DNA of 64,000 nucleotides from an uncultured Ureaplasma sp. Lineage in GTDB: Bacteria; Bacillota_I; Bacilli_A; Mycoplasmatales; Mycoplasmoidaceae. Below are positions 4,558 to 50,994 of the stretch, one piece after another. Numbering within the stretch: the stretch's first letter is position 1; each line of letters begins with the position of its first letter. Under the pieces are notes generated by a model. It searched no databases. It was not told the DNA's origin and was given only the letters and a program-made list of their open reading frames with translations. The DNA lies in NCBI GenBank assembly GCA_947039515.1, contig CAMQYY010000001.1, positions 126,902 through 190,901 of the forward strand, written 5' to 3'. The translations under genes and the position numbers were made by a program.

Positions 4558-5325
4558 ATGAAAAAAAGAACTAAAATAATTAATGGTTTATTTCTATCGA
4601 CAATAGCTTTAAGTTCTATAACTGCTTTAAGTATTGTTAGTTTTGATAATCAAAATAAAATTTCTAACTATAATGTGAATACAAACAATCATAATTTGAG
4701 TTCAAAAGTTAATGAAAATCAATCAACATATATAACAGCTTCAGAAAGAAGTACTTTTGTTGCTGCTAAAAATCAATTACCAACTGATGTTGTTAATTCT
4801 TTAACAGTTAAAAGTGAATATGTTTCAAATGATGCTCAAAAAGTTTGATTCAAACCTTCTGATAATGCTTTAAGATTTGTTGAAGTTATAAATCCAAGTG
4901 TGGAATGAAATTCTAAAGAAGATATGGCTGTGTGTGTTGATGCAGCTGATGATTGAAGTGGTTCACTACGTCTTGAATTTGTTCTATTAAAGAATTATAG
5001 TATTGGTGGTGTTCCAATTACTCCTCCTGGTGGTAATGGGATATTACCGAGTTCACCATATCATATTGATGTTGGATATATGAATAGCTTTACAGTTATA
5101 ATCCCAATGTTAACTATTTTGGGATTAATTGCATTAATTATTTTAATTGGTGGTATTGGTAGTGCTGTTATTATTCGTAAAAATTCAGTTGCAAAATCAC
5201 AAGATAATGCAAAAGAAAATGGTGTTGTAACTGCTTCTAAAAAACCTAAATCTCGTGAAAATGAAAATAAGAAAAAAACTAAACCTGTAAAACAAGATAA
5301 AAAAAGTCTTGAAGAAACAATCTAA
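4558..5325 (+). CDS. Membrane-anchored surface protein of unknown function (N-terminal signal/anchor, C-terminal TM helix plus Lys-rich tail), 255 aa
   Basis: Joins track ORFs 4543..4848 and 5080..5325 (in frame, 537 nt apart) through three TGA codons. The likely start is ATG 4558 (MKKRTKIINGLFLSTIALSSITALS). The C-terminus reads ...TVIIPMLTILGLIALIILIGGIGSAVIIRKNS..KKKTKPVKQDKK. No lipobox Cys is present. Confidence 0.65.
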
Positions 5326-13687: not shown

Positions 13688-14962
13688 TTACTTTTTCTTT
13701 AATGAAGCTTTAAATTGTTCATTTTCTAATTTTAATTTTTCATTTTCTAATTTCATGTTTTTCAATAAAAGTTTATTAAGTTCAAATTCTAAAAATTCTT
13801 CTTCCTTTTTTTGAAGTTCTTTTATTTTATTCTTATATTTTTTTATAAGTTTATCTTTATTTTTAAGAGCATCATCAGTTGTTTTAGTACCAGCTTTTTT
13901 ATCATCTTTTTTCTTGTCTGATGAATCATTTTCCTCTTTAGAATCACTATCATCAGTTTCATTAACTTCTTCATTATTTGTATCATTAGCTATAGTTTCA
14001 ACAACATCATTATTATTTTCTTCATTATTTGTATCATCAGCTATAGTTTCAACAACATTATTATTAGTTTCTTCATTATTTGTATCATCAGCTATAGTTT
14101 CAACAACATTATTATTAGTTTCTTCATTATTTGTATCATCAGTTATAATTTCAACAACATCATTATTAGTTTCTTCATTATTTGTATCAATAGCTATAGC
14201 TTCAACAATATTATTATTAGTTTCTTCATTATTTGTATCAATAGCTATAACTTCAATAATATTATTATTAGTTTCTTCATTATTTGTATCAATAGCTATA
14301 ACTTCAATAGCATCATTACTTGTTGAATCAAAACTTGTATTGCTAATTATATAATCATTATTTATTGAATCAGAACTTGTGTTGTTGTTTGAATAATTAT
14401 TGGTTGCATTACTGCTTGAATAACTAAAACTTGTATTGTTTGAATAGGCATCGCTCGGAATACCATAATTTGTAGTGTTGTTTAAATAATCATTAGTTGT
14501 GCTGCTTGAATAACTAAAACTTGTATTATTATCTGTGCTGTTATTTGAATAATCAAAACTTGTATCAGTATTTATGCTTTCAACAACATTATTACTTATT
14601 GGATCAACATTTGTATCTTTTGAAATCGTAACTATATCTTCATCAATGTCATCGCTAATATCACCAATATCATCATCAATATCAATATCAATATCATCAT
14701 CTTCAACTAAATCATCAAAAGATAACGATACATCTAAATCCATAAGATCATCTTCATCATCTAATTCTTTATGATTAATTTTAGGATTTTCAATTTTTTT
14801 TGCAGGTGCTTCAACTTTTGAAATCTCAACTTTTTTTAGAGTTTTTTCAACTTTTGAAGTAGTTTTTTTATTATTTATATTTTTTGGTTTATTTGATTCA
14901 ATTTCTTTAGTTGAAGAATCATTATTTTTTTTATTTTTTTTTGGTTTTTTATTCAATGCCAT
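13688..14962 (-). CDS. Highly acidic repeat protein (424 aa) with a Lys-rich N-terminus, a D/E/N-rich core carrying 17-aa tandem repeats, and a Lys/Glu coiled-coil C-terminus
   Basis: Track ORF 13688..14980. The likely start is ATG 14962 (MALNKKPKKNKK), preceded by GAGG 8 nt upstream. There is no signal peptide or TM segment. The core reads ...DTNNEETNNNIIEVIAI DTNNEETNNNIVEAIAI DTNNEETNNDVVEIITD DTNNEETNNNVVETIAD... The C-terminus reads KIKELQKKEEEFLEFELNKLLLKNMKLENEKLKLENEQFKASLKKK. Confidence 0.75.
   Translation of the reverse strand: MALNKKPKKNKKNNDSSTKEIESNKPKNINNKKTTSKVEKTLKKVEISKVEAPAKKIENPKINHKELDDEDDLMDLDVSLSFDDLVEDDDIDIDIDDDIGDISDDIDEDIVTISKDTNVDPISNNVVESINTDTSFDYSNNSTDNNTSFSYSSSTTNDYLNNTTNYGIPSDAYSNNTSFSYSSSNATNNYSNNNTSSDSINNDYIISNTSFDSTSNDAIEVIAIDTNNEETNNNIIEVIAIDTNNEETNNNIVEAIAIDTNNEETNNDVVEIITDDTNNEETNNNVVETIADDTNNEETNNNVVETIADDTNNEENNNDVVETIANDTNNEEVNETDDSDSKEENDSSDKKKDDKKAGTKTTDDALKNKDKLIKKYKNKIKELQKKEEEFLEFELNKLLLKNMKLENEKLKLENEQFKASLKKK
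13967..14318. repeat. About 6.9 copies of a 51-bp in-frame tandem repeat (17 aa each)
   Basis: The plus-strand unit is ttcttcattatttgtatcatcagctatagtttcaacaacattattattagt. It is repeated head-to-tail with a few substitutions per copy. Two central copies appear identical. Confidence 0.85.
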
Positions 14963-16806: not shown

Positions 16807-19785
16807 TTATTTAGATACTTTTTCTTCATTACCAATTGCTTTTTCAATATCTCTAATTGGTTTTATTTTTTTAATATATAAAAAAGTAGATAAAGCAATA
16901 ATCACTGAAATAAAAGCTATACTTCCCAAAACAATTCCCACAATACCACCAACTTCAAGACTAGAAGATGACGGTGCAACTGGAGGTGGAAATGTTTGAT
17001 TAACATAACCATTTACATAATTATTAAGAGGTTCAAGAGCAACTGCTCCGTTTCTTAAAATTAAATCAAATAAACCTTGAGTATTATCTTTTGAAGCAGG
17101 TAAATTACTAGGATCTATAAATAACTTATCAGGATTTGCTTTTTGATAATTATAAGAAGCATCAATGAATGCATCTTCAATAATTTCTTGACCAGTTGTA
17201 TAAGCTGTAGCTTGTCCAACATAACCTAAATATCGATATGATTCTCTACTAATATCACCAAATCCAAGAGCTGAATTTTTTGACATATATTCTCTTTGTC
17301 CATTAATAGAAAGACCTGTTCCAGTTGTTCCATTACCATTACCAGTTTGAGAAGCTGAATCAAGATATAATCTCATTGCTCTAAGTTGTCTTTCATTTAA
17401 AAAACCAAAGTATTGCAATGCTTCATATAAAGTTTGTGATTGTTCTCCGTTTGAATCACTATAAACTCCATTATCAAACTGATAACTTGCATTATTTTGT
17501 TGAGCTAATTTAATCGAAGTTCCATTAGTTCCAAATTTTGGTAAAGTTAATCTTTCAAGTTCACTATTAGGGTTTGTACTTGGTAGAGTTATTGGGCTTA
17601 TATCACCATAAATGTTAATTCTAGTAGCTAAGAATTCTGTAAATAATCCCCAACCTTCACTATAAGCTGAGTTTCTAATACTAGGTGCATCTTCAGTTGC
17701 TGGATATGTTTCAGCATAAGCGAATTGGAAATCATGTCCTGGAACTGCTTCATGTGTTGAAAGCGTTGAAACACTTCATTTTTGTAAACCAAAGTAAGGA
17801 TCAATATCTAAATAAAAAGTTGGTTGAAAATAAGTAGAACCTGTAGGGCTAGCTAAATTTTCAACACTAGCATATGCAGCACCACCTGTTCCTGATTTTA
17901 AATTATAGTCATAACGAACATTTTTGAATAAATCTTGAAAACTTGGTTGAGTGCTCTTTTTATATTTTAAATAACTATTAATTGAATGAGTAGCTCCAAT
18001 ATAAGCGTCATTACCAACTACACCGCCTACAACAATTGGATTTGATCCATTATTAGCATCTGTTACTCATTTATTATATAAATTACCAGCATCTCCAAGA
18101 TTATTAGGGTTATTTACATTTGGTCCACCTAATACATTGCCAACATTAATATCAACATTTGTTAAAGGAAGTTTTTGACTAGTAGGTTGAGGATTTCAAG
18201 GTTCTAATACTCCTAAAGTTTCCACATTTATAATATTTTTATATTGATTAGTACTTGTTGGTACTTCTGAAGCATTAAGAACAGCTGATTGAGCGTTTTC
18301 ACCAACTCTTCTATCTCTACCATAAAATCATTCTTCATTATTTAATCATAAGAAGAAGTTTTCTAAATTAATAGCACCATTAGCATCTCTAATTGCAAGT
18401 ACTTTATCTGCTGCTGGTATTGGACCAAAACCATCTGTATCATATCTAACTGTAGGAGCTCATTCTGTTGTTTCATTTCCTGTTTTTATTTTTGAAACAA
18501 TTTTTGCAATTTCAGTCATTCTTTGACTAATAACTTTTACTTTATTTTGACCATTATTAACTAAATCAGCAGAAACTAAATTATTATCAGAAGTTCTAGT
18601 TCCAAGCATATACTCATAAATTTCGATACCCATTTTTCCATTTCTAGAAAAACCAATACCTACATCTTTAACATCTAAATCTGCAGGAACAAATCCCATT
18701 CCTGTTATCCCTGAAAAAGAATTTTCAAGATTAGCTGTTGTTGAACCTTTTAAAACATATGCATCTTGATTAATAGTACTTTTACCATAATAAGTTTTAG
18801 GACTTGTCTCTTCTATAGTTGCATTAAATCAATAGTCACCAATAAGAAAGCTAAGAAATTTATCAAAAATGATTTGAGCATCATTTATTTTATTTTTCAA
18901 TGCTTCTTTATTAGCAGTTGGTAAACTTGTAGCTGAATCAATAATATTAGTAATTCCAGAATCTTGTAAAAAACCAATTCCATTAAAAGAGGCAATTCTT
19001 ACTCCAGTATTTTTGTCAATAAAATTACTATCAAATACTAGTTCACTATTTGCCTTTAAAGCTTCTATTTCCTTAGTAAAAATTCCATAATTAGTTCTAA
19101 AACCACCTAATAAGCTTTGTAAAAACATTTTTAAATAAATTTGACTAAAATTGACACCATTATTTAAACCTTCTTTTAAATTTGCAATTAAATTTTCTAT
19201 ATGTTTAATATATTCATCTATATTTGCAATTCTTGAATTTGAATTAGTTACCGCATTAGCTTCAGTATCATTAGGAATAGGTTTTCTTAAATCTTGATTT
19301 AATAATGCTATATTTCTACTTTCTTGATTACTATAAGCATCAAGAACACCAGAACCATTATCACCTAAATAATATGATTTAGCCTCTAAACCTTTTATAA
19401 CAGTAGTTCATCTAGCAACAATGCTTTCACCAATCATTTTGCCATCAACAGTTTGAAAAGTATTCATTGATTTTTCTAAATTTAATATATATTTTTTATA
19501 AATAGGAATAATAGTTGTAGCAACACTATCATTTCAAAGTCCATAACGGTTAGTATTAATTTTATTAATTTCAGCTATTAATTCATTATTAATTTTGCTA
19601 ACTTCACTAACTTCATTTTTACTTTTTTTAGCGTTTCTACTATAGTCTAAATTATTATAATTAATTGATGAATTATTGTTAATATCTCCAGCTATTGTTA
19701 CTGGAATAATGATGCTACCAGCTGTAGCTAAAGTAGCTGTTATTATTGTTGAACTTAATAACATATTATTAAAATTTTTTTTCAT
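16807..19785 (-). CDS. DUF885-family protein (putative zinc metallopeptidase fold) displayed on the surface, 992 aa, with an N-terminal signal/anchor and a C-terminal TM anchor
   Basis: Track ORFs 19534..19785, 18829..19128, 18460..18699 and 16807..17418 share one frame. I scanned all gaps codon by codon and found many TGA but no TAA or TAG. The DUF885 signature HEAVPGHDFQFAYAE reads from about 17700-17760. The N-terminus is MKKNFNNMLLSSTIITATLATAGSIIIPVTIAG. The C-terminus is ...VGGIVGIVLGSIAFISVIIALSTFLYIKKIKP... Confidence 0.75.
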
Positions 19786-29298: not shown

Positions 29299-29394
29299 AA
29301 ATATCTCTTTTTAAAAAAAATAAAAAAATTATTATCAATTAGATATCCAGCTATTCTAAAATAGGAAATTAAGATTATTTGATGAATATATATA

Positions 29395-29430
29395 ATAAAA
29401 AACTAGAAAATTAATTTTCTAGTTTTTTAT
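29395..29430. terminator. Hairpin terminator downstream of LRR gene copy A (also faces ruvX)
   Basis: aaaaaactagaaaa-ttaa-ttttctagtttttt. The same sequence recurs at 32551-32583. Confidence 0.7.
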
Positions 29431-29450
29431 ATATTTAAAATAAATTATTT

Positions 29451-32441
29451 TTATTCTTCTGAATCGCTATAGTCTTCTGATGAATCAGAACTTTCTAAAG
29501 CTTTTCTTTTAGATAATACAATCCTTCTAATAATAAATATTAAAGCGATTATTAAAATAAGACCTGCAATACCACCAACTATAGCAAATATTATTCCAAA
29601 TGTATCAGCAACAACATTAGTTCCACCACCAGCAGATAAAATAGCAGTATTTGAATTTGCATTTAAAATACTACCTAAATCAATAGCTGCATTATTGTTA
29701 TAAATAGATTTAAAAGTAAACCCATCAATTGTTGTATTTAATTTAGTATCAGTTTGAGGTTTAAAGTTTAATAAAGTATCATCAGTAGTAATTGTAGCAT
29801 CCAAAGTACCACCAGTAAATTGAATTCTATCACCAAGAGCATCTACTTTTAAAGTTTTTAAAACTTCATCACTTAAAAGTTTTTCATCAACACCTTGTGT
29901 TGTAAATCATAGTCTTTTTTTAGCTAAATTCAATGTAGGTTCTCCACCTTCAACACCTGGAGTAGGATAATTATCATTAAATGCAGTCATTAATTCTTGA
30001 AGTGCTGGAATTAAAGTAGAGTCGCCTTTTGCAGCTATTGCTGCTTTTTCAAGCTCTTTATAATCATTATTATTAATATTTACATTTGTTCCAGCTTGAA
30101 TTAAATCATTTTGTTTATAGAATTTAATATTACCAACAGATGGAGCAGTAATACCACCATGATTAGCATTATTAAATTTTGTTAAATCTCCAAAAGGAAT
30201 GAATAATTTAGAAACATTATTATTTAAAAACATATCAGTATAGTCAATAGCAGCAGCACTTTGTGCAGTATCACTAGCACCAGCTAAAGAAGGCATAGTA
30301 AATCTTGTTAAAGAAGGAGTGTCAGCAAATGCACCTTTTCCTAAAGATGTTAAACTACTTGGTAAAGTAGCTGAAGTTAGAGCTGAAGAATTAGCAACTA
30401 AATTTGTTCCAATAGATGTTAAAGTTTTTGGTAATTCTAAAGTTTTTAAAGCTGTGAAATTAGAAAATACATTATTACCAATAGTTTTTAATTGAGAAAG
30501 AACTGAATCAAATTTTGTTACTTTTGCTACTAATTGTCCACCAACACCAGGTATTGTTTCAATAGATTGAGCATTTGGTAAAAAATCATTAAATTTAATA
30601 ACTTGAGCACTATTTTTTGTAGATTCTCATAAATAAGAATAATTAGTAGTATTTGGAGTACCAAATGGAAGATCATTTGATAAAGAATTAGGAACATCCT
30701 TAAATTCAGTAATATACTCAGGAATAGTTAATACATTAGTTTGGTTGTTGAAAATTGGATCACCAGTTAATTTATGTTTTGTTGTATAGTCATAATTAGG
30801 AAAATTTCATGTTGCTTTGTCTGGACTTCTATATTGTAGTGAATCAAATATTTTATCTTCTTCTGTGATTACATATGGTTCTCATTTTGCAGAAGCTTCT
30901 TTTTCAACAGCAGTAGTTTTTAAAGCTCTATAATAATTACCACCATCAGTTGTATCATTAACTAAATAACCATTAGTACCAACTAAATTACTTGTATATT
31001 CCATTTTATTAATACCTATTGCATTAGCATTATAAGAGAATATTGAATTTGCTGGTGTAGGACTAGGAGCTCCTTCATTTATGTATCTATTAGATATAAC
31101 ACCTAATTCATTAATTGTTTCAAAACCAGACATTAAATGAGAAACACGATTTCAATCATTATTTAAATTATTTAAATAATTACTTTGATTAACAGTGCCT
31201 GAATTCAAAGTAGCATTAAATATTGCATATTCATTTGAATTTGGAGCATATTTATTTGCAAAAGCTGTTTGAGCAGCAGCTATTTTTGATGTTTCAGTAG
31301 CTGGTGTAATAACATGACTTGTAGCAGGAACATAATTTGTCACTTCACCTGTAGTAGTACCTGTTACTTCATAAAAGTTAGCAACATCATTAAATCAAAT
31401 ACTTTCTCTTACAACATGACCTTGCTTATCAAAACAAAATTTAAACATATCAACAATTTCAGGTACATTCGGAATAGAAATAGTTACATTAGTAAAAAAT
31501 AATGGATTAATAGAAGTTGGTTCTACTTCAGGATGTTGAGGAAAAGGATGAGATCCTGGTTCTTCATAATATCGATTAGAAACAATTGTATTATTGAATA
31601 TTCCTAAGTAATTATTCTCACCCAAAGCAATCAAATCAGATGGAGTTGGAGTTGTTTTACTAATATTATTTTCAATAGGAGCAGCAGGATTAATTAAAGC
31701 AAATCTCATATTAGCTGGATAAACTATTTCTCTTTCAACATCATTAGATGGTTTTAAACTAGCTGGTGTTGAACCAGTTTGTGTAGCACTTTTTGCAATA
31801 AAACGGCCAAGAGAAAAATTACTTGTTATTGTATAAGTACGATTGTCTGAAGGTGCATCTCCTTGTGTTCTTTCAAATAATCCATTATGAAAAACTATTT
31901 TATCTGGAGAAGATGAATGCATATTATCTGGTTGAGGAAAGTAAACTTTTACTAAAGCTTCCATAAAATTAAATACTTCACTACCAACTGTCTTTAATTT
32001 TGAATTATCTTGAAAACGAATTTCTTTAACATTATCAATTCATGGATTTCCTCTATCAAACATACTAGTAAGACCATATCTATTACTACCTGGTGCCATT
32101 GAGAATTCTGTTGAAAGTGACTTTACATAATTAGGAATAGTAAAAACACCTGTCTCAGCATTTCAAGCTGGTTTACTAGCATCAACATTTACAGCATCAA
32201 CATCACCAAGACCTCATGTTGTAATATCACCTGCAAATGCCATATTAAAATCAGTACGTACTACTGTAACAATCTTATTATTAGTATTATTAGTACCTTC
32301 TTTTAAAAGAACATTACTAAGATTATTATTAGTATCTACATTACTATTAGCAAGACTTATTCCAAGTCCTAATCCTGAAGCAATAATAGCACCTGTAAAT
32401 AAAGAAGCAATTGTAACTTTTTTTATATTTTGTTTTTTCAT
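29451..32441 (-). CDS. BspA-type leucine-rich-repeat surface protein, copy A, 996 aa (signal peptide, LRR ectodomain, C-terminal TM anchor, acidic Ser-rich tail)
   Basis: Six track ORFs share one frame: 32214..32441, 31395..31964, 31152..31343, 30882..31133, 29907..30296 and 29451..29804. I scanned the largest gap (30297-30881) codon by codon and found only TGA. The LRR_5-like repeats read IGNNVFSNFTALKTLELPKTLTSIGTNLVANSSALTSATLPSSLTSLGKGAFADTPSLTRFTMP. The N-terminus is MKKQNIKKVTIASLFTGAIIASGLGLGISLA, with no lipobox Cys. The C-terminus is FGIIFAIVGGIAGLILIIALIFIIRRIVLSKRKALESSDSSEDYSDSEE. Confidence 0.75.
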
Positions 32442-32550
32442 TTTTATCCCTTTTGTAATAATTTTATTTAACTAATAAAATTATAGAGTAAAAATTTAAA
32501 AAATTGAAATTAAAATAGGAAATCAAAAGTATTTGATGAATAATATGTTA

Positions 32551-32583
32551 AAAAAAACTAGAAAATTAATTTTCTAGTTTTTA
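32551..32583 (-). terminator. Hairpin terminator downstream of LRR gene copy B
   Basis: aaaaaaactagaaaa-ttaa-ttttctagttttt. It is a duplicate of the terminator at 29395-29430. Confidence 0.7.
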
Positions 32584-32604
32584 TATATTTAAAATAAATT
32601 ATTT

Positions 32605-35562
32605 TTATTCTTCTGAATCGCTATAGTCTTCTGATGAATCAGAACTTTCTAAAGCTTTTCTTTTAGATAATACAATCCTTCTAATAATAAATATTAAAGC
32701 GATTATTAAAATAAGACCTGCAATACCACCAACTATAGCAAATATTATTCCAAATGTATCAGCAACAACATTAGTTCCACCACCAGCAGATAAAATAGCA
32801 GTATTTGAATTTGCATTTAAAATACTACCTAAATCAATAGCTGCATTATTGTTATAAATAGATTTAAAAGTAAACCCATCAATTGTTGTATTTAATTTAG
32901 TATCAGTTTGAGGTTTAAAGTTTAATAAAGTATCATCAGTAGTAATTGTAGCATCCAAAGTACCACCAGTAAATTGAATTCTATCACCAAGAGCATCTAC
33001 TTTTAAAGTTTTTAAAACTTCATCACTTAAAAGTTTTTCATCAACACCTTGTGTTGTAAATCATAGTCTTTTTTTAGCTAAATTCAATGTAGGTTCTCCA
33101 CCTTCAACACCTGGAGTAGGATAATTATCATTAAATGCAGTCATTAATTCTTGAAGTGCTGGAATTAAAGTAGAGTCGCCTTTTGCAGCTATTGCTGCTT
33201 TTTCAAGCTCTTTATAATCATTATTATTAATATTTACATTTGTTCCAGCTTGAATTAAATCATTTTGTTTATAGAATTTAATATTACCAACAGATGGAGC
33301 AGTAATACCACCATGATTAGCATTATTAAATTTTGTTAAATCTCCAAAAGGAATGAATAATTTAGAAACATTATTATTTAAAAACATATCAGTATAGTCA
33401 ATAGCAGCAGCACTTTGTGCAGTATCACTAGCACCAGCTAAAGAAGGCATAGTAAATCTTGTTAAAGAAGGAGTGTCAGCAAATGCACCTTTTCCTAAAG
33501 ATGTTAAACTACTTGGTAAAGTAGCTGAAGTTAGAGTTGAAGAATTAGAAGCTAAATTTGTTCCAATAGATGTTAAAGTTCTTGGTAATTCTAAAGTTTT
33601 TAAAGATGTGAAATTAGAAAATACATTATTACCAATAGTTTTTAATTGAGAAGAAACTCTATCACCTTTTGTTACTTTAGCTGTTAATTGTCCATCAGAA
33701 CCAACTTCTGTTATAATAGATTCAGGATTTGGTAAGAAATCATTAAATTTAATAACTTGTGCAACATTTTTTGTAGATTCTCATAAATAACTATAAATAA
33801 CTGTATCTGGAGTACCTATCTGAAGATTATTTGCTAAAGAATTAGGAACATCCTTAAATTCAGTAATATATTCAGGAATAGTCAATACATTAGTTTGATT
33901 GTTGAAAATTGGATCACCAGTTAATTTATGTTTTGTTGTATAGTCATACTTAGGAAAATTTCATGTTGGTTTGTCTGGACTTCTATAATCCAATACATCA
34001 AAAGTTTTATCTTCTTCTGTGATTACATATGGTTCTCATTTTGCAGAAGCTTCTTTTTCAACAGCAGTAGTTTTTAAAGCTCTATAATAATTACCACCAT
34101 CAGTTGTATCATTAACTAAATAACCATTAGTACCAACTAAATTACTTGTATATTCCATTTTATTAATACCTATTGCATTAGCATTATAAGAGAATATTGA
34201 ATTTGCTGGTGTAGGACTAGGAGCTCCTTCATTTATGTATCTATTAGATATAACACCTAATTCATTAATTGTTTCAAAACCAGACATTAAATGAGAAACA
34301 CGATTTCAATCATTATTTAAATTATTTAAATAATTACTTTGATTAACAGTGCCTGAATTCAAAGTAGCATTAAATATTGCATATTCATTTGAATTTGGAG
34401 CATATTTATTTGCAAAAGCTGTTTGAGCAGCAGCTATTTTTGATGTTTCAGTAGCTGGTGTCATAACATGGCTTGTAGCAGGAACATAATTTGTCACTTT
34501 ACCTGTAGTAGTACCTGTTACTTCATAAAAATTAGTAACATCTTGAAATCACATACTTTCAGCAAATATTCTATTTGAATTATTTGTCAAAGGATATTGC
34601 ATTGTTTGAACTACTGAAGGTACATTTGGAACTGAAATAGTTAGATTATTATAAAACAAAGGATTAATAGCAGATGATTCAACATTAGATAAAGGTGGAG
34701 TACCAAGAGGTGGATTAGTATAATATTTATTAGAAACAATTGTATTATTGAATAATCCTAAGTAGTTAGCTTTATCACCTAAACTATTTAATTCATGAGG
34801 AGTTGGACTTTCTAGGTTCATCACATTAGTAGTATTATTTAGAACAGATCATTGCATATTTGCTGGATAAACTATTTCTCTAGAAACATCTTTACTTGGT
34901 TTTGGTAATCCAGCTCATCTTGAAAGAGAAAAATCACTTCTACCTGTAAATGGTGCCAACTGTCCAGGTGCTTCAGTCGGTGGGACTGTATCAAATTTAT
35001 GTATACCATTATGAAAATATATTTTATTATTTTTAAAACTCGTATGCATATCAGCTGGTTGAGGAAAATAAACTTTTGTCAATTCTGACATTCAACTAAA
35101 TACTTCAGTACCAACTTTTCCTAACATTGAACCTTTTTGAAAACGAATTTCTTTAACCTGACTCATTCAAGGATTTGCAACATTATCAGTAGCATGACCA
35201 TATTCATTACCACCTGGTGCTAATTTAAGTGTCGCTTCAAGTGACCTTACATAATTAGGAATAGTAAAAACACCTGTATCAGGATTTCAAGCTGGTTTAT
35301 TAGTATCAACATTGTCACCAGTAGGAGTACCAAGACCTCATGTTGTAATATCACCAAGATATCCACTACTAAATTGAGCACGCACAGTAGTAATAATTCT
35401 ATTACTATTATTAGTACCTTCTTTTAATAGAACATTACTAAGATTATTATTAGTATCTACATTACTATTAGCAAGACTTATTCCAAGTCCTAATCCTGAA
35501 GCAATAACAACACCTGTAAATAAAGAAGCTATTGTAATTTTTTTTATATTTTGTTTTTTCAT
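32605..35562 (-). CDS. BspA-type leucine-rich-repeat surface protein, copy B, 985 aa
   Basis: Six track ORFs share one frame: 35338..35562, 34549..34824, 34306..34497, 34036..34287, 33061..33450 and 32605..32958. The three C-terminal fragments translate identically to copy A (117, 129 and 83 aa). A fourth fragment differs by one residue. The N-terminal ectodomain is divergent. Confidence 0.75.
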
Positions 35563-35617
35563 TTTTTATCCTTTTTCATTTTAAAAAATTAATATTAAAT
35601 AATTATACATCAAATAA

Positions 35618-50722: not shown

Positions 50723-50820
50723 ATATATCCTTATTATCAAAATATTATTTCATTTATATTTATATTTAATATTATAGATTAAAAAATAAATCAAAATTAA
50801 TTTTATAATATAATATATAT

Positions 50821-50899
50821 GTCATCACAATATTAATTAGTGAACCTTGTCAGGGTAGAAATACAGCAGCAATAAATTGAGTCTTATGTGTGGTGATGT
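50821..50899 (+). ncRNA. ffs: Small SRP RNA (4.5S/scRNA type)
   Basis: The sequence is gtcatcacaatattaattagtgaaccttgtcagggtagaaatacagcagcaataaattgagtcttatgtgtggtgatg. The terminal helix pairs catcac with gtgatg. The apical part GUCAGGGU-AGAAAU-ACAGCAGC resembles the conserved domain IV (E. coli GUCAGGUCCGGAAGGAAGCAGCC) with a GNRA-type loop. A TATAAT-like box lies about 12 nt upstream. The ends are approximate. Confidence 0.65.
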
Positions 50900-50904
50900 T
50901 TTAT

Positions 50905-50994
50905 GGAAGCATACTCAAGTGGTTAAGAGGGCACCCTGCTAAGGTGTTAGATCGGGTAACTGGTGCGAGAGTTCGAATCTCTCTGCTTCCGCCA
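50905..50994 (+). tRNA. tRNA-Ser (anticodon GCT), class II with a long variable arm
   Basis: The sequence is ggaagca...gcacc-CTGCTAA-ggtgt-tagatcgggtaactggtgc-gagag-ttcgaat-ctctc-tgcttcc-g-cca. The acceptor stem is 7 bp, the anticodon is GCT, and CCA is encoded. Confidence 0.9.

What the first reader, a model, noticed from the sequence alone, without database searches (positions are those of the whole stretch)
29343..35580. Tandemly duplicated LRR surface-protein genes with block-mosaic identity, a candidate gene-conversion or surface-variation locus
Two intact, co-oriented genes of roughly 990 aa (29451..32441 and 32605..35562) form a ~3.15 kb direct tandem repeat. The repeat includes the terminator and part of the 3' flank. 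Divergence between the copies is not uniform.
- Block 1 is the terminator plus roughly the C-terminal third of the gene (about 29395-30382 versus 32551-33536). It looks identical by eye, and the track translations of 117 and 129 aa are identical.
- Block 2 is the LRR segment (30383 to about 30870). It has scattered substitutions, with roughly 10-15 percent of positions differing by eye.
- Block 3 (about 30870-31380) is again nearly identical. The 83-aa fragments match exactly and the 63-aa fragments differ at one residue.
- Block 4 is the N-terminal ectodomain (about 31385-32290 versus 34540-35410). It is strongly divergent and has a net 33-nt length difference.
- Block 5 is the signal peptide and first ~50 codons, which are nearly identical again.
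Alternating identical and divergent blocks are what repeated gene conversion or recombination between paralogs produces. This pattern is not expected from simple divergence after a single duplication. The divergent parts are the exposed ectodomain, while the anchor, stalk and export signal are homogenised. In a wall-less bacterium this looks like a two-cassette surface-diversity locus. It is built on a BspA-like LRR scaffold with a C-terminal TM anchor rather than on the usual lipoprotein families.
Basis: partly seen in the sequence, partly recalled or inferred. Interest (0 to 1): 0.7.

Follow-up and report, generated by a model that had tools for sequence, protein, structure and literature searches.

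The report
Tandem LRR surface genes, assembler-homogenised blocks
Two neighbouring genes for leucine-rich-repeat surface proteins in a fish-gut Mycoplasma really are old duplicates whose rear two-thirds have been kept similar by copying between them, but the strikingly "perfectly identical" blocks are most likely written by the short-read assembler, not by biology.

Summary
Read with TGA=Trp, two intact co-oriented genes (996 and 985 aa) form a 3,154-nt tandem repeat. Exact-identity runs of 954 and 457 nt alternate with an 11.8%-divergent LRR block and a roughly 50%-aa-identical N-terminal domain.

Seven other assemblies of the same organism change the reading. They form two clonal lineages with no flank SNPs within a lineage. 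Yet the "identical" blocks carry 51 biallelic sites in seven linkage groups, and copy A equals copy B at every site in every assembly. The groups assort like independent coin flips with no phylogenetic signal. Linkage breaks only across SNP-free gaps of 56 nt or more and never across 52 nt or less. That is the signature of bubble collapse at k=55 in SPAdes-type assemblies of 2x125-bp reads.

True divergence in those blocks is probably about 3-4%. A coarser mosaic is real. Synonymous divergence in the N-terminal domain matches that to a sister species, while the C-terminal two-thirds is about six-fold younger. Ca. Mycoplasma liparidae carries the same tandem pair.

Nothing supports a programmed variation locus. 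The BspA-LRR plus C-terminal TM architecture is already known in Ca. M. girerdii.

The parts
32605..35562 (-). Copy B (ndk-proximal), 985-aa BspA-type LRR type-I membrane protein
   Evidence: Intact ORF under table 4. LRR_5 PF13306 scores 57.6 bits against a cut-off of 27.7. It is identical to P0098.
29451..32441 (-). Copy A (ruvX-proximal), 996-aa paralog
   Evidence: Intact ORF under table 4. LRR_5 scores 58.6 bits. It is identical to P0092.
29429..30382 (-). 'Block 1' in copy A: 954-nt run identical to 32583-33536. It covers C-terminal aa 687-996 plus the stop codon and 22 nt downstream. It contains collapsed-bubble clusters s (30321), c (30085-29944), d (29888-29846), e (29759-29632) and f (29523-29482).
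   Evidence: Exact run. It holds 32 sites that are polymorphic among 8 assemblies, always with A==B.
32583..33536 (-). 'Block 1' in copy B, the counterpart of 29429-30382
30383..30850 (-). 'Block 2' in copy A (aa 531-687, the lead-in and first part of the LRR region). It has 55 A/B differences, all less than 56 nt apart, so they form one 523-edge bubble at k=55. It was kept distinct in all 8 assemblies and is invariant between strains. The counterpart in copy B is 33537-34004.
   Evidence: dN/dS is about 1.09 with dS 0.12.
30851..31307 (-). 'Block 3' in copy A: 457-nt run identical to 34005-34461 (aa 379-530). It contains collapsed-bubble clusters a (31234-31181) and b (31125-30972).
31385..32290 (-). 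Divergent N-terminal ectodomain of copy A (aa ~51-352). The counterpart in copy B is 34540-35410. It is 51% aa identical, with indels that sum to 33 nt.
   Evidence: dN/dS is about 1.4 with dS 0.29. Third-position divergence is 0.12, about the same as to the sister species. Only 4 SNPs separate the two lineages across both N-terminal regions.
32291..32441 (-). Signal peptide or N-terminal hydrophobic segment and the first ~50 codons of copy A. The counterpart in copy B is 35411-35562. There is no lipobox cysteine.
   Evidence: 94% aa identity between the copies, and 76-92% to orthologs. The sequence itself is shown.
30288..30497 (-). Pfam LRR_5 (BspA-type) match in copy A, aa 649-718. In copy B it is 33442-33654.
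   Evidence: PDB relatives are 4gt6, 4fs7, 4h09, PcpA 4cp6 and TpLRR 6mlx.
29529..29600 (-). C-terminal transmembrane anchor (FGIIFAIVGGIAGLILIIALIFII, aa 948-971). It is followed by a basic stop-transfer segment and an acidic Ser-rich tail (29451-29528).
   Evidence: Read directly from the sequence. The model gives a helix at 943-982. There are weak hits to TM-segment families.
32549..32591 (-). Hairpin terminator after copy B, inside the 163-nt intergenic spacer (32442-32604) that also holds copy A's own TATAAT box and RBS
   Evidence: The palindrome AAAAACTAGAAAATTAATTTTCTAGTTTTT is shown.
29389..29431 (-). Duplicate of the same hairpin terminator after copy A. The repeat decays by about 29343.

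Best explanation
The locus is a real, ancient tandem pair of genes. Each encodes a type-I membrane protein with a signal peptide, an orphan ectodomain containing a BspA-type LRR_5 segment, a C-terminal TM anchor and an acidic tail. These are probably host- or mucus-binding adhesins of a codfish-gut Mycoplasma.

The duplication predates the split from a sister species. The two N-terminal domains have diverged since then with dN/dS of 1 or more, so they look like functionally differentiated paralogs rather than variable cassettes. The C-terminal two-thirds has been homogenised more recently by intergenic recombination (gene conversion).

On top of this real coarse mosaic sits an assembly artefact. 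The two copies truly differ at about 51 further sites, clustered in seven short patches. A k=55 de Bruijn assembler merged each short patch as a 'bulge', kept one allele at random, and then walked that merged edge twice. This produced the 954-nt and 457-nt runs of perfect identity. Only the long bubbles survived as A/B differences: block 2 (523 edges) and the N-terminal domain.

Shown: the anatomy, the population pattern, the threshold and the heterogeneity in synonymous divergence. Inferred: the assembler mechanism, the adhesin function and the direction of conversion.
For: 1. Two clonal lineages. Eight assemblies (the window plus L001 and L004-L009) split into two lineages on 37 flank variants. 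There are 0-4 flank differences within a lineage over 16.7 kb; the few seen all involve the window and are end-of-alignment indels. The same assemblies differ at up to 100 positions in the 3.9 kb of 'identical' blocks.
2. Complete homogenisation. At all 51 such sites copy A equals copy B in every assembly, so 56 of 56 bubble states are homogenised. Both alleles occur in both lineages for 5 of 7 groups. An allele lost by real homogenisation could not reappear inside a clone.
3. A sharp linkage threshold. Linkage breaks only across gaps of 56, 56, 87, 109 and 236 nt, and across block 2. It never breaks across the 44 gaps of 52 nt or less. P=0.0018 if breakpoints fell in proportion to gap length, and the maximum likelihood of this configuration under that model is 4e-4.
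4. A clean size split. Every cluster with a k=55 bubble length of 209 or less is collapsed. Every retained A/B difference lies in a bubble of 523 or in the N-terminal region.
5. Random allele choice. Allele frequency is 0.43. Mean Hamming distance is 3.50 within a lineage and 3.88 between lineages, against 3.5 expected for fair independent picks. Mean |phi| is 0.31, the same as the random expectation.
6. Assembly type. Contig names are in SPAdes NODE_ format. The 'RIIS20' samples match a codfish-gut study that used 2x125-bp reads (PMC7054092). The default top k of 55 for such reads is from my own knowledge.
7. A natural comparison. The Ca. M. liparidae pair came from a MiSeq plus Nanopore assembly at k up to 127 (PMC6965317). 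It keeps isolated SNPs and 15 short patches, 159 differences in all. That is what an uncollapsed pair looks like.
8. The coarse mosaic is real. Third-position divergence between A and B is 0.12 in the N-terminal domain and at most 0.026 in the middle and C-terminal blocks even when maximally un-collapsed (p=4e-5). The middle and C-terminal value is far below the 0.155 to the sister species (p=8e-11). The N-terminal A/B value equals the N-terminal B/sister value (p=0.5).
9. Positional orthology. In the N-terminal domain copy B is closer to the sister species' ndk-proximal copy (56%) than to copy A (51%), with bootstrap 0.96.
10. Conserved arrangement. The tandem pair sits directly downstream of ndk in Ca. 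M. liparidae as well.
Against: - I could not look at reads, so the collapse is inferred from assemblies only.
- I could not verify how the window's own contig was assembled. It is a 268,964-nt contig held by NCBI and ENA.
- The SPAdes bulge parameters (maximum length 3k+100, coverage cap 1000) and default k values are recalled from memory, not checked.
- Two of the eight assemblies ('METAG-scaffold') come from an unidentified pipeline.
- It is not obvious how a short-insert assembler walks a 954-nt collapsed repeat twice. My account is that the Eulerian path is forced because each unique edge is used once, and that is an inference.
- Two linkage-breaking gaps of exactly 56 nt is itself a coincidence.
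- In lineage 1, groups a and d show only one allele in all four assemblies, so some segments may truly be homogenised.
- The order 'duplication before speciation' rests on a 5-point identity difference with bootstrap 0.96. The second copy in the sister species was not recovered.
Confidence: 0.78

Rival explanations
1. The assemblies are correct. The two expressed genes exchange short segments by very frequent gene conversion, so each host population has fixed a different combination of segment alleles in both copies. On this reading the locus is a genuine two-gene segmental diversity generator.
For: - A==B at every polymorphic site in 8 of 8 assemblies, and segment alleles recombine freely.
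- The segment differences are mostly nonsynonymous: 36 nonsynonymous against 15 synonymous.
- The M. liparidae pair shows patchy differences with pN/pS of 1.83, and some patches lie in similar places.
- Groups a and d are monomorphic in lineage 1.
Against: - Homogenised genomes cannot regenerate a lost allele, yet both alleles occur inside each clonal lineage, where there are no flank SNPs.
- None of the 56 segment states is caught un-homogenised.
- Breakpoints respect a sharp 52/56-nt threshold that matches k=55 (P=0.0018).
- Allele combinations carry no phylogenetic signal.
- The long divergent block 2 is never converted in any assembly, although converted segments flank it on both sides.
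Confidence: 0.1
2. There has been no gene conversion. A single fairly recent duplication was followed by rapid, selection-driven divergence of the N-terminal domain and the LRR block, while the rest stayed similar under constraint.
For: - dN/dS is about 1.4 in the N-terminal domain and about 1.1 in block 2.
- The paralogs of each species are closer to each other than to any ortholog over most of the gene, which is also what independent recent duplications would give.
Against: - Synonymous-type divergence should be uniform after a single duplication. It is 0.12 in the N-terminal domain against at most 0.026 in the middle and C-terminal blocks (p=4e-5).
- N-terminal paralog divergence equals the divergence from the sister species.
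- Copy B's N-terminal domain is closer to the sister ortholog than to copy A.
- The same tandem arrangement at the same chromosomal site in Ca. M. liparidae would require repeated independent duplications.
Confidence: 0.08
3. The whole tandem duplication is a mis-assembly. Two strain variants of a single gene were laid out in tandem.
For: - Sister-species contigs break at this gene in three assemblies.
- BspA genes are known sites of assembly gaps in Ca. M. girerdii.
Against: - The N-terminal domains are only 51% identical, with indels, which is far beyond the 0.2% difference between strains.
- Each copy has its own upstream region and a terminator.
- The arrangement is the same in 8 assemblies from at least two pipelines and in a Nanopore-assisted assembly of another species.
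Confidence: 0.03

Closest known systems
BspA-like (TpLRR / Pfam LRR_5) surface proteins of Candidatus Mycoplasma girerdii (Fettweis 2014, PMC4206474; Costello 2017, PMC5476646)
   Same: Both are Mycoplasma surface proteins built on BspA-type LRRs with a C-terminal TM anchor, some with an N-terminal signal peptide. Both are multi-copy, and both are trouble spots for short-read assembly.
   Different: M. girerdii has 26-28 scattered, highly diverse copies, several with phase-variable dinucleotide repeats. Here there are only two copies, in tandem, with no dinucleotide repeats. Most of the ectodomain (aa 51-640 and 720-945) matches no known family.
Tannerella forsythia BspA, Treponema LrrA/TpLRR and Streptococcus PcpA (LRR_5 adhesins)
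   Same: They share the LRR_5 repeat type, with PDB hits to TpLRR 6mlx and PcpA 4cp6. Adhesion or host-receptor binding is the presumed role (function as cited).
   Different: The match covers only about 70-90 residues, roughly three repeats. The anchoring differs (TM helix rather than a wall, choline or Por anchor). No function has been tested here.
Concerted evolution of tandem surface-protein paralogs by gene conversion (for example Listeria internalin clusters and Neisseria opa genes; from my own knowledge, not checked here)
   Same: The paralogs are mosaic, with conserved anchor and export parts. Some regions group by genome and others by ortholog. dN/dS is raised in the ligand-binding parts.
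   Different: Only two copies are involved. The fine block structure is not trustworthy in these assemblies.
Mycoplasma programmed antigenic-variation systems (vsp, vsa, vlp, mpl, vlhA, MgPa/RepMP)
   Same: They are multi-copy surface-protein genes in a wall-less bacterium, and recombination between copies is involved.
   Different: There is no lipoprotein signal, site-specific recombinase, silent donor cassette or simple-sequence-repeat switch. The divergent domains do not vary between strains.
Collapsed paralog variants ('bulge' or bubble merging) in de Bruijn graph assemblies (bulge collapsing is described for SPAdes in PMC6736328)
   Same: Equal-coverage, equal-length alternative paths are merged into one. 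The merged sequence is reused for each repeat copy. Independent units are delimited by shared k-mers.
   Different: In this case the artefact mimics gene conversion tracts closely enough to pass a run-length permutation test.

Membership tests
Pfam LRR_5 (PF13306) BspA-type leucine-rich repeat proteins | Match to the family HMM above the gathering threshold | tested here: met
   58.6 and 57.6 bits against a cut-off of 27.7, at aa 649-718 and 637-707. PDB LRR_5 structures match at E values down to 2.6e-22 with the family profile.
BspA-like membrane-anchored surface proteins (Ca. M. girerdii / Trichomonas type) | LRR_5/TpLRR domain plus a C-terminal transmembrane helix and a short cytoplasmic tail | tested here: met
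   A 24-residue hydrophobic segment at aa 948-971 is followed by RRIVLSKRK and an acidic tail. The model gives a helix at 943-982. The M. girerdii architecture is described in PMC4206474. No dedicated TM predictor was available.
BspA-like membrane-anchored surface proteins (Ca. M. girerdii / Trichomonas type) | Sequence relatedness outside the LRR region | tested here: not met
   Only 2 full-length 50%-identity clusters were found among 1.84 billion representatives, and all other hits cover profile positions ~560-750 only, mostly 620-730. The N-terminal, middle and C-terminal parts have no Pfam hit.
Mycoplasma phase- or antigenic-variation loci (vsp/vsa/vlp/mpl/vlhA/MgPar) | Several cassettes or silent donor copies | tested here: not met
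   There are two intact copies and no other paralog in the 64-kb window. The whole database holds only clusters A and B for this species. The rest of the genome could not be scanned directly.
Mycoplasma phase- or antigenic-variation loci (vsp/vsa/vlp/mpl/vlhA/MgPar) | A switch element: a site-specific recombinase with inverted repeats, or simple-sequence repeats in the promoter or 5' CDS | tested here: not met
   The neighbours are ndk, ABC transporter genes, ruvX, alaS, argS and hup. The only inverted repeat is the duplicated terminator. There are no dinucleotide, trinucleotide or tetranucleotide repeats. There is only an A8 run at codons 6-8 of copy B, and its length is the same in all 8 assemblies.
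Mycoplasma phase- or antigenic-variation loci (vsp/vsa/vlp/mpl/vlhA/MgPar) | The divergent (exposed) region varies between strains | tested here: not met
   The paralog-specific N-terminal regions show 0 differences within a lineage and 4 between lineages in about 2 kb. Block 2 is invariant.
Mycoplasma phase- or antigenic-variation loci (vsp/vsa/vlp/mpl/vlhA/MgPar) | Lipoprotein signal peptide (lipobox Cys) | tested here: not met
   The N-terminus MKKQNIKKVTIASLFTGAIIASGLGLGISLANSN contains no cysteine.
Concerted evolution / gene conversion between paralogs | Some regions group by genome while others keep orthologous or ancient divergence, with heterogeneous synonymous divergence | tested here: met
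   Third-position divergence is 0.12 in the N-terminal domain against at most 0.026 in the middle and C-terminal blocks (p=4e-5). The middle and C-terminal value is far below the sister-species divergence (p=8e-11). N-terminal copy B is closer to the sister ortholog than to copy A (bootstrap 0.96).
Concerted evolution / gene conversion between paralogs | Conversion tracts verified on phased (long-read) sequence | not testable with these tools
   No reads are available. The short-read assemblies are unreliable exactly in the candidate tracts.
De Bruijn bubble-collapse artefact | Sites polymorphic among assemblies of one clone, always identical between the repeat copies, in units delimited by shared k-mers, with random allele choice | tested here: met
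   Searches show 56 of 56 states homogenised, a 52/56-nt threshold, Hamming distance 3.50 within a lineage against 3.5 expected, and mean |phi| equal to the random value.
De Bruijn bubble-collapse artefact | About 50:50 read support for both alleles at the collapsed sites within one sample | not testable with these tools
   Raw reads (probably ENA study PRJEB31095) cannot be accessed here.

The most novel reading that the evidence does not exclude
The allele shuffling among assemblies is real. On this reading, two co-expressed LRR adhesin genes exchange patches of about 50-150 nt by extremely frequent bidirectional gene conversion, with re-supply of alleles by recombination between cells. Clonal gut populations would then differ combinatorially in seven exposed patches while both copies stay matched. 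That would be a minimal two-gene segmental diversity generator with no silent cassettes.
Probability: 0.08. Interest if true: 0.65.

Novelty: new member of a known kind. Interest (0 to 1): 0.22.

Why it matters
Biologically this is a modest result. It adds a small, clade-specific pair of BspA-type, TM-anchored surface proteins to the fish-gut Mycoplasma clade (codfish MAGs and Ca. M. liparidae). The pair shows real coarse concerted evolution and signs of diversifying selection, which makes the proteins reasonable candidates for host-attachment factors in these little-understood symbionts.

Methodologically it is a useful warning. Short-read de Bruijn assemblers can produce long stretches of perfect identity between paralogs. 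Those stretches pass run-length or GENECONV-style tests and look like recent gene conversion. Comparing several assemblies of the same clone exposes the problem without needing the reads.

Tried and rejected
- Table-11 ORF calling breaks the genes into fragments, so I switched to table 4.
- A third paralog in the window: the 992-aa ORF at 16807-19785 is an unrelated DUF885 protein.
- Structure prediction of copy A from the 6-sequence family alignment gave mean pLDDT 37.5 and pTM 0.28. Only the LRR segment reached about 70. I ran no fold search because the matches would be meaningless.
- Pfam on the isolated N-terminal, middle and C-terminal parts returned nothing. NCBIfam gave only a sub-threshold HupY/LrrG hit over the LRR.
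- The profile search of 1.84 billion representatives was swamped by giant LRR_5 proteins and added only the two full-length clusters already known.
- The metagenome scan added one 1.85-kb fragment (L014, 55% identity) and some LRR-only hits. The genome scan did not return the window's own species.
- A literature search for the sample and run accessions found nothing. The link to Riiser et al. 2020 therefore rests on the 'RIIS20' label.
- I tested whether the sister-species contig end repeats the gene's upstream region, which would indicate a collapsed loop. It does not.
- I considered horizontal import of divergent segments followed by conversion. I rejected it because it would need four separate tracts per strain inside clones that have no flank SNPs.
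- I considered opposite-direction conversions in two lineages. I rejected that as the sole cause because both alleles occur within each clonal lineage.
Full report
**1. What is in the sequence.**

The window is about 23% G+C. Under table 11 the region shows only ORF fragments that end at TGA. Under table 4 there are two intact, co-oriented minus-strand genes:
- copy A, 29451-32441, 996 aa
- copy B, 32605-35562, 985 aa

- Block 1: a 954-nt exact run, 29429-30382 = 32583-33536. It covers the C-terminal third, the stop codon and the first 22 nt downstream. The rest of the terminator continues the repeat after a 1-nt indel.
- Block 2: 55 differences in 468 nt at 30383-30850.
- Block 3: a 457-nt exact run at 30851-31307.
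- Block 4: a strongly divergent N-terminal domain whose indels sum to 33 nt.
- Block 5: a near-identical 5' end.

The longest exact run inside the CDS is 932 nt. In 10,000 permutations of the same 389 differences the maximum was 105 nt.

**2. What the proteins are.**

- Both carry one Pfam LRR_5 (BspA-type) segment, at aa 649-718 in copy A and aa 637-707 in copy B.
- Solved relatives are limited to that segment: 4gt6, 4fs7, PcpA and TpLRR.
- The N-terminus is a hydrophobic signal-like segment with no lipobox cysteine.
- The C-terminus is a 24-residue TM helix followed by a basic stretch and then an acidic, Ser-rich tail.
- The rest of the ectodomain matches no known family.
- Among 1.84 billion representative proteins, only two 50%-identity clusters align over the full length.
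- An AlphaFold model from the 6-sequence alignment was too poor to use, with mean pLDDT 37.5.
- The architecture is not new for Mollicutes. Ca. Mycoplasma girerdii has 26-28 BspA-like proteins, 23 with a C-terminal TM domain. Some are phase-variable through dinucleotide repeats, and they were assembly gap sites (PMC4206474 and PMC5476646).
- This locus has no such repeats, no recombinase nearby and no third copy in the window.

**3. Relatives.**

Full-length homologs are few.
- Near-identical A and B orthologs occur in seven other assemblies.
- A sister species is 62-64% aa identical (L002, L013, L010, the last labelled 'uncultured Ureaplasma sp.' MAG).
- A tandem pair occurs in the MAG of Candidatus Mycoplasma liparidae, the hadal snailfish gut symbiont.

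In the window, in L001 and in M. liparidae the pair lies directly downstream of ndk, and ruvX/alaS follow it in the window's species. In the sister species two assemblies stop at the same nucleotide, 134 nt after the first copy. A third stops inside the gene.

**4. The population test, which changes the interpretation.**

I aligned 23 kb around the locus from the window and the seven other assemblies.

The 37 variable flank positions define exactly two clonal lineages:
- lineage 1: W, L004, L005, L007
- lineage 2: L001, L006, L008, L009

Within a lineage the flanks are identical over 16.7 kb. The only exceptions are a few end-of-alignment indels that involve the window. The paralog-specific N-terminal regions differ at only 4 sites between the lineages, and block 2 is invariant.

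The paralog-'identical' blocks behave very differently. They hold 51 biallelic sites, and assemblies of the same lineage differ at up to 100 positions across the two copies. At every one of those sites, in every assembly, copy A equals copy B.

The sites form seven linkage groups:

| Group | Copy A coordinates |
|---|---|
| a | 31234-31181 |
| b | 31125-30972 |
| s | 30321 |
| c | 30085-29944 |
| d | 29888-29846 |
| e | 29759-29632 |
| f | 29523-29482 |

Two single sites, 29953 and 29646, behave as ordinary lineage-specific SNPs on one allele.

- Linkage changes only across SNP-free gaps of 56, 56, 87, 109 and 236 nt, and across block 2. It never changes across the 44 gaps of 52 nt or less.
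- If breakpoints fell in proportion to gap length, P=0.0018. The best likelihood of the observed configuration under that model is 4e-4.
- Group alleles behave as independent fair coin flips. Allele frequency is 0.43. Mean Hamming distance is 3.50 within a lineage and 3.88 between lineages, against 3.5 expected. Mean |phi| is 0.31, the same as random.
- Clusters that would form k=55 bubbles of 209 edges or fewer are all 'polymorphic between assemblies, identical between copies'. All retained A/B differences lie in the 523-edge bubble (block 2) or in the N-terminal region.

**5. Reading of that pattern.**

Real conversion cannot easily do this. Once both copies carry allele 2, allele 1 is gone from that clone. 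Yet both alleles occur inside each clonal lineage for 5 of 7 groups, and none of the 56 group states is caught un-homogenised.

A de Bruijn assembler at k=55 explains every feature.
- Variants separated by 55 or more shared bases form separate bubbles.
- Equal-length, equal-coverage bubbles are merged and one allele is kept. Bulge collapsing in SPAdes is described in PMC6736328.
- The merged edge is then used for both repeat copies.

Six of the eight contig names are in SPAdes NODE_ format or come from the same submission series. The 'RIIS20' sample label fits Riiser et al. 2020, a codfish-gut metagenome study with 2x125-bp HiSeq reads (PMC7054092). For such reads the default largest k in SPAdes and metaSPAdes is 55 (from my own knowledge).

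The M. liparidae pair was assembled from very deep MiSeq data plus Nanopore reads at k up to 127 (PMC6965317). It keeps isolated SNPs and 15 short patches, 159 differences in all. That is what the window's pair would look like if groups a-f were restored as A/B differences, giving about 3.5-4% divergence in blocks 1 and 3.

I therefore put about 0.8 on the perfect identity being an assembly product. The unknowns are listed under evidence against.

**6. What remains real.**

I used third codon positions of codons with a conserved amino acid as a synonymous proxy, and assigned all 51 sites as A/B differences, which is the worst case.

| Region | A vs B | W vs sister species |
|---|---|---|
| N-terminal domain | 0.12 | 0.15-0.18 |
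| Block 2 | 0.06 | 0.09-0.11 |
| Middle + C-terminal blocks | 0.026 | 0.14-0.16 |

The tests below are.
- N-terminal domain against the rest: p=4e-5.
- Middle and C-terminal paralog divergence against species divergence: p=8e-11.
- N-terminal paralog divergence against species divergence: p=0.5.
- Block 2 against blocks 1 and 3: p=0.15, not significant.

In the N-terminal domain copy B is closer to the sister species' ndk-proximal copy (56%) than to copy A (51%), with bootstrap 0.96.

The duplication is therefore at least as old as that speciation, and the C-terminal two-thirds was homogenised later. This is real concerted evolution at a coarse scale.

Selection signals:
- dN/dS is about 1.4 in the N-terminal domain, about 1.1 in block 2 and about 0.7 for the patch alleles.
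- The M. liparidae pair has pN/pS of 1.83, with 95 nonsynonymous and 15 synonymous differences (p=0.015).
- The exposed parts seem to be under relaxed or diversifying selection between paralogs, but they are stable between strains.

**7. Mechanism (inferred).**

Each gene has its own promoter-like TATAAT box and RBS, and each shares the duplicated hairpin terminator. Both are probably expressed.

The likely function is attachment to host or mucus ligands through the LRR and the orphan ectodomain, with the two N-terminal domains giving two specificities. Homologous recombination between the 3.15-kb direct repeats periodically homogenises the stalk, anchor and tail, and to a lesser degree the LRR block. 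None of this function has been tested.

**8. Verdict.**

However, the feature that made it striking, alternating perfectly identical blocks, is most probably an artefact of short-read assembly. The 'surface-variation cassette' reading is not supported. The scaffold is already known in Mycoplasma. This is a new member of a known kind, of low to moderate interest, and a useful cautionary example.

Noticed in passing
L003 6920-9853 and 10001-12937 (Ca. Mycoplasma liparidae RHHX01000001.1): The tandem pair in this species differs at 159 nt, in 15 patches separated by exact runs of up to 867 nt. The differences are overwhelmingly nonsynonymous (95 against 15; pN/pS 1.83; p=0.015). Some patches fall at roughly the same protein positions as groups c and e of the window's genes.
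   Followed up: partly
L002 13116 (contig end), L013 13123 (contig end), L010 8931 (contig end): Two independent sister-species assemblies stop at the same nucleotide, 134 nt after the stop codon of the ndk-proximal copy. A third stops inside the gene at residue ~978. This suggests an unresolved second copy there. The contig end does not repeat the gene's upstream region.
   Followed up: partly
window 19400-42500 compared with L001 and L004-L009: Eight public assemblies of this organism reduce to just two clonal genotypes, about 0.2% apart. There are no SNPs within a genotype across 16.7 kb of flanks. Either several assemblies come from the same samples, or a very clonal symbiont is shared among fish.
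   Followed up: partly
window 35538-35545 (- strand, codons 6-8 of copy B): There is an A8 run in the 5' coding region of copy B. In copy A the run is interrupted (A6 then G). Poly-A tracts in the 5' CDS act as phase switches in some mycoplasmas (from my own knowledge). Here the length is the same in all 8 assemblies, and such runs are common at 23% G+C.
   Followed up: partly
window 16807-19785 (-): This 992-aa DUF885-family protein has an N-terminal signal-like segment and a C-terminal TM anchor with a basic tail. Its topology and size are close to the LRR proteins, but it is unrelated in sequence.
   Followed up: no
window 13688-14962 (-): This 424-aa, highly acidic, Asn-rich protein has about eight tandem 16-residue repeats (consensus roughly NNxVExIAxDTNNEET) between Lys-rich ends.
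   Followed up: no
window 50814-50991 (+): The SRP RNA (50814-50912) directly abuts or overlaps a tRNA (50905-50991). The mechanically called ORF that starts at 50896 begins inside these RNA genes, so its true start is probably further downstream.
   Followed up: no
window 4558-5325 (+): This 255-aa protein has a signal peptide, a C-terminal TM helix and a Lys-rich tail. It is another small type-I membrane protein in a genome where lipoproteins are the usual surface class.
   Followed up: no
L014 (SAMEA5043679 co-assembly contig, 1850 nt): This fragment encodes residues 1-511 of a further family member at 55% identity, so at least one more species carries this orphan ectodomain.
   Followed up: no
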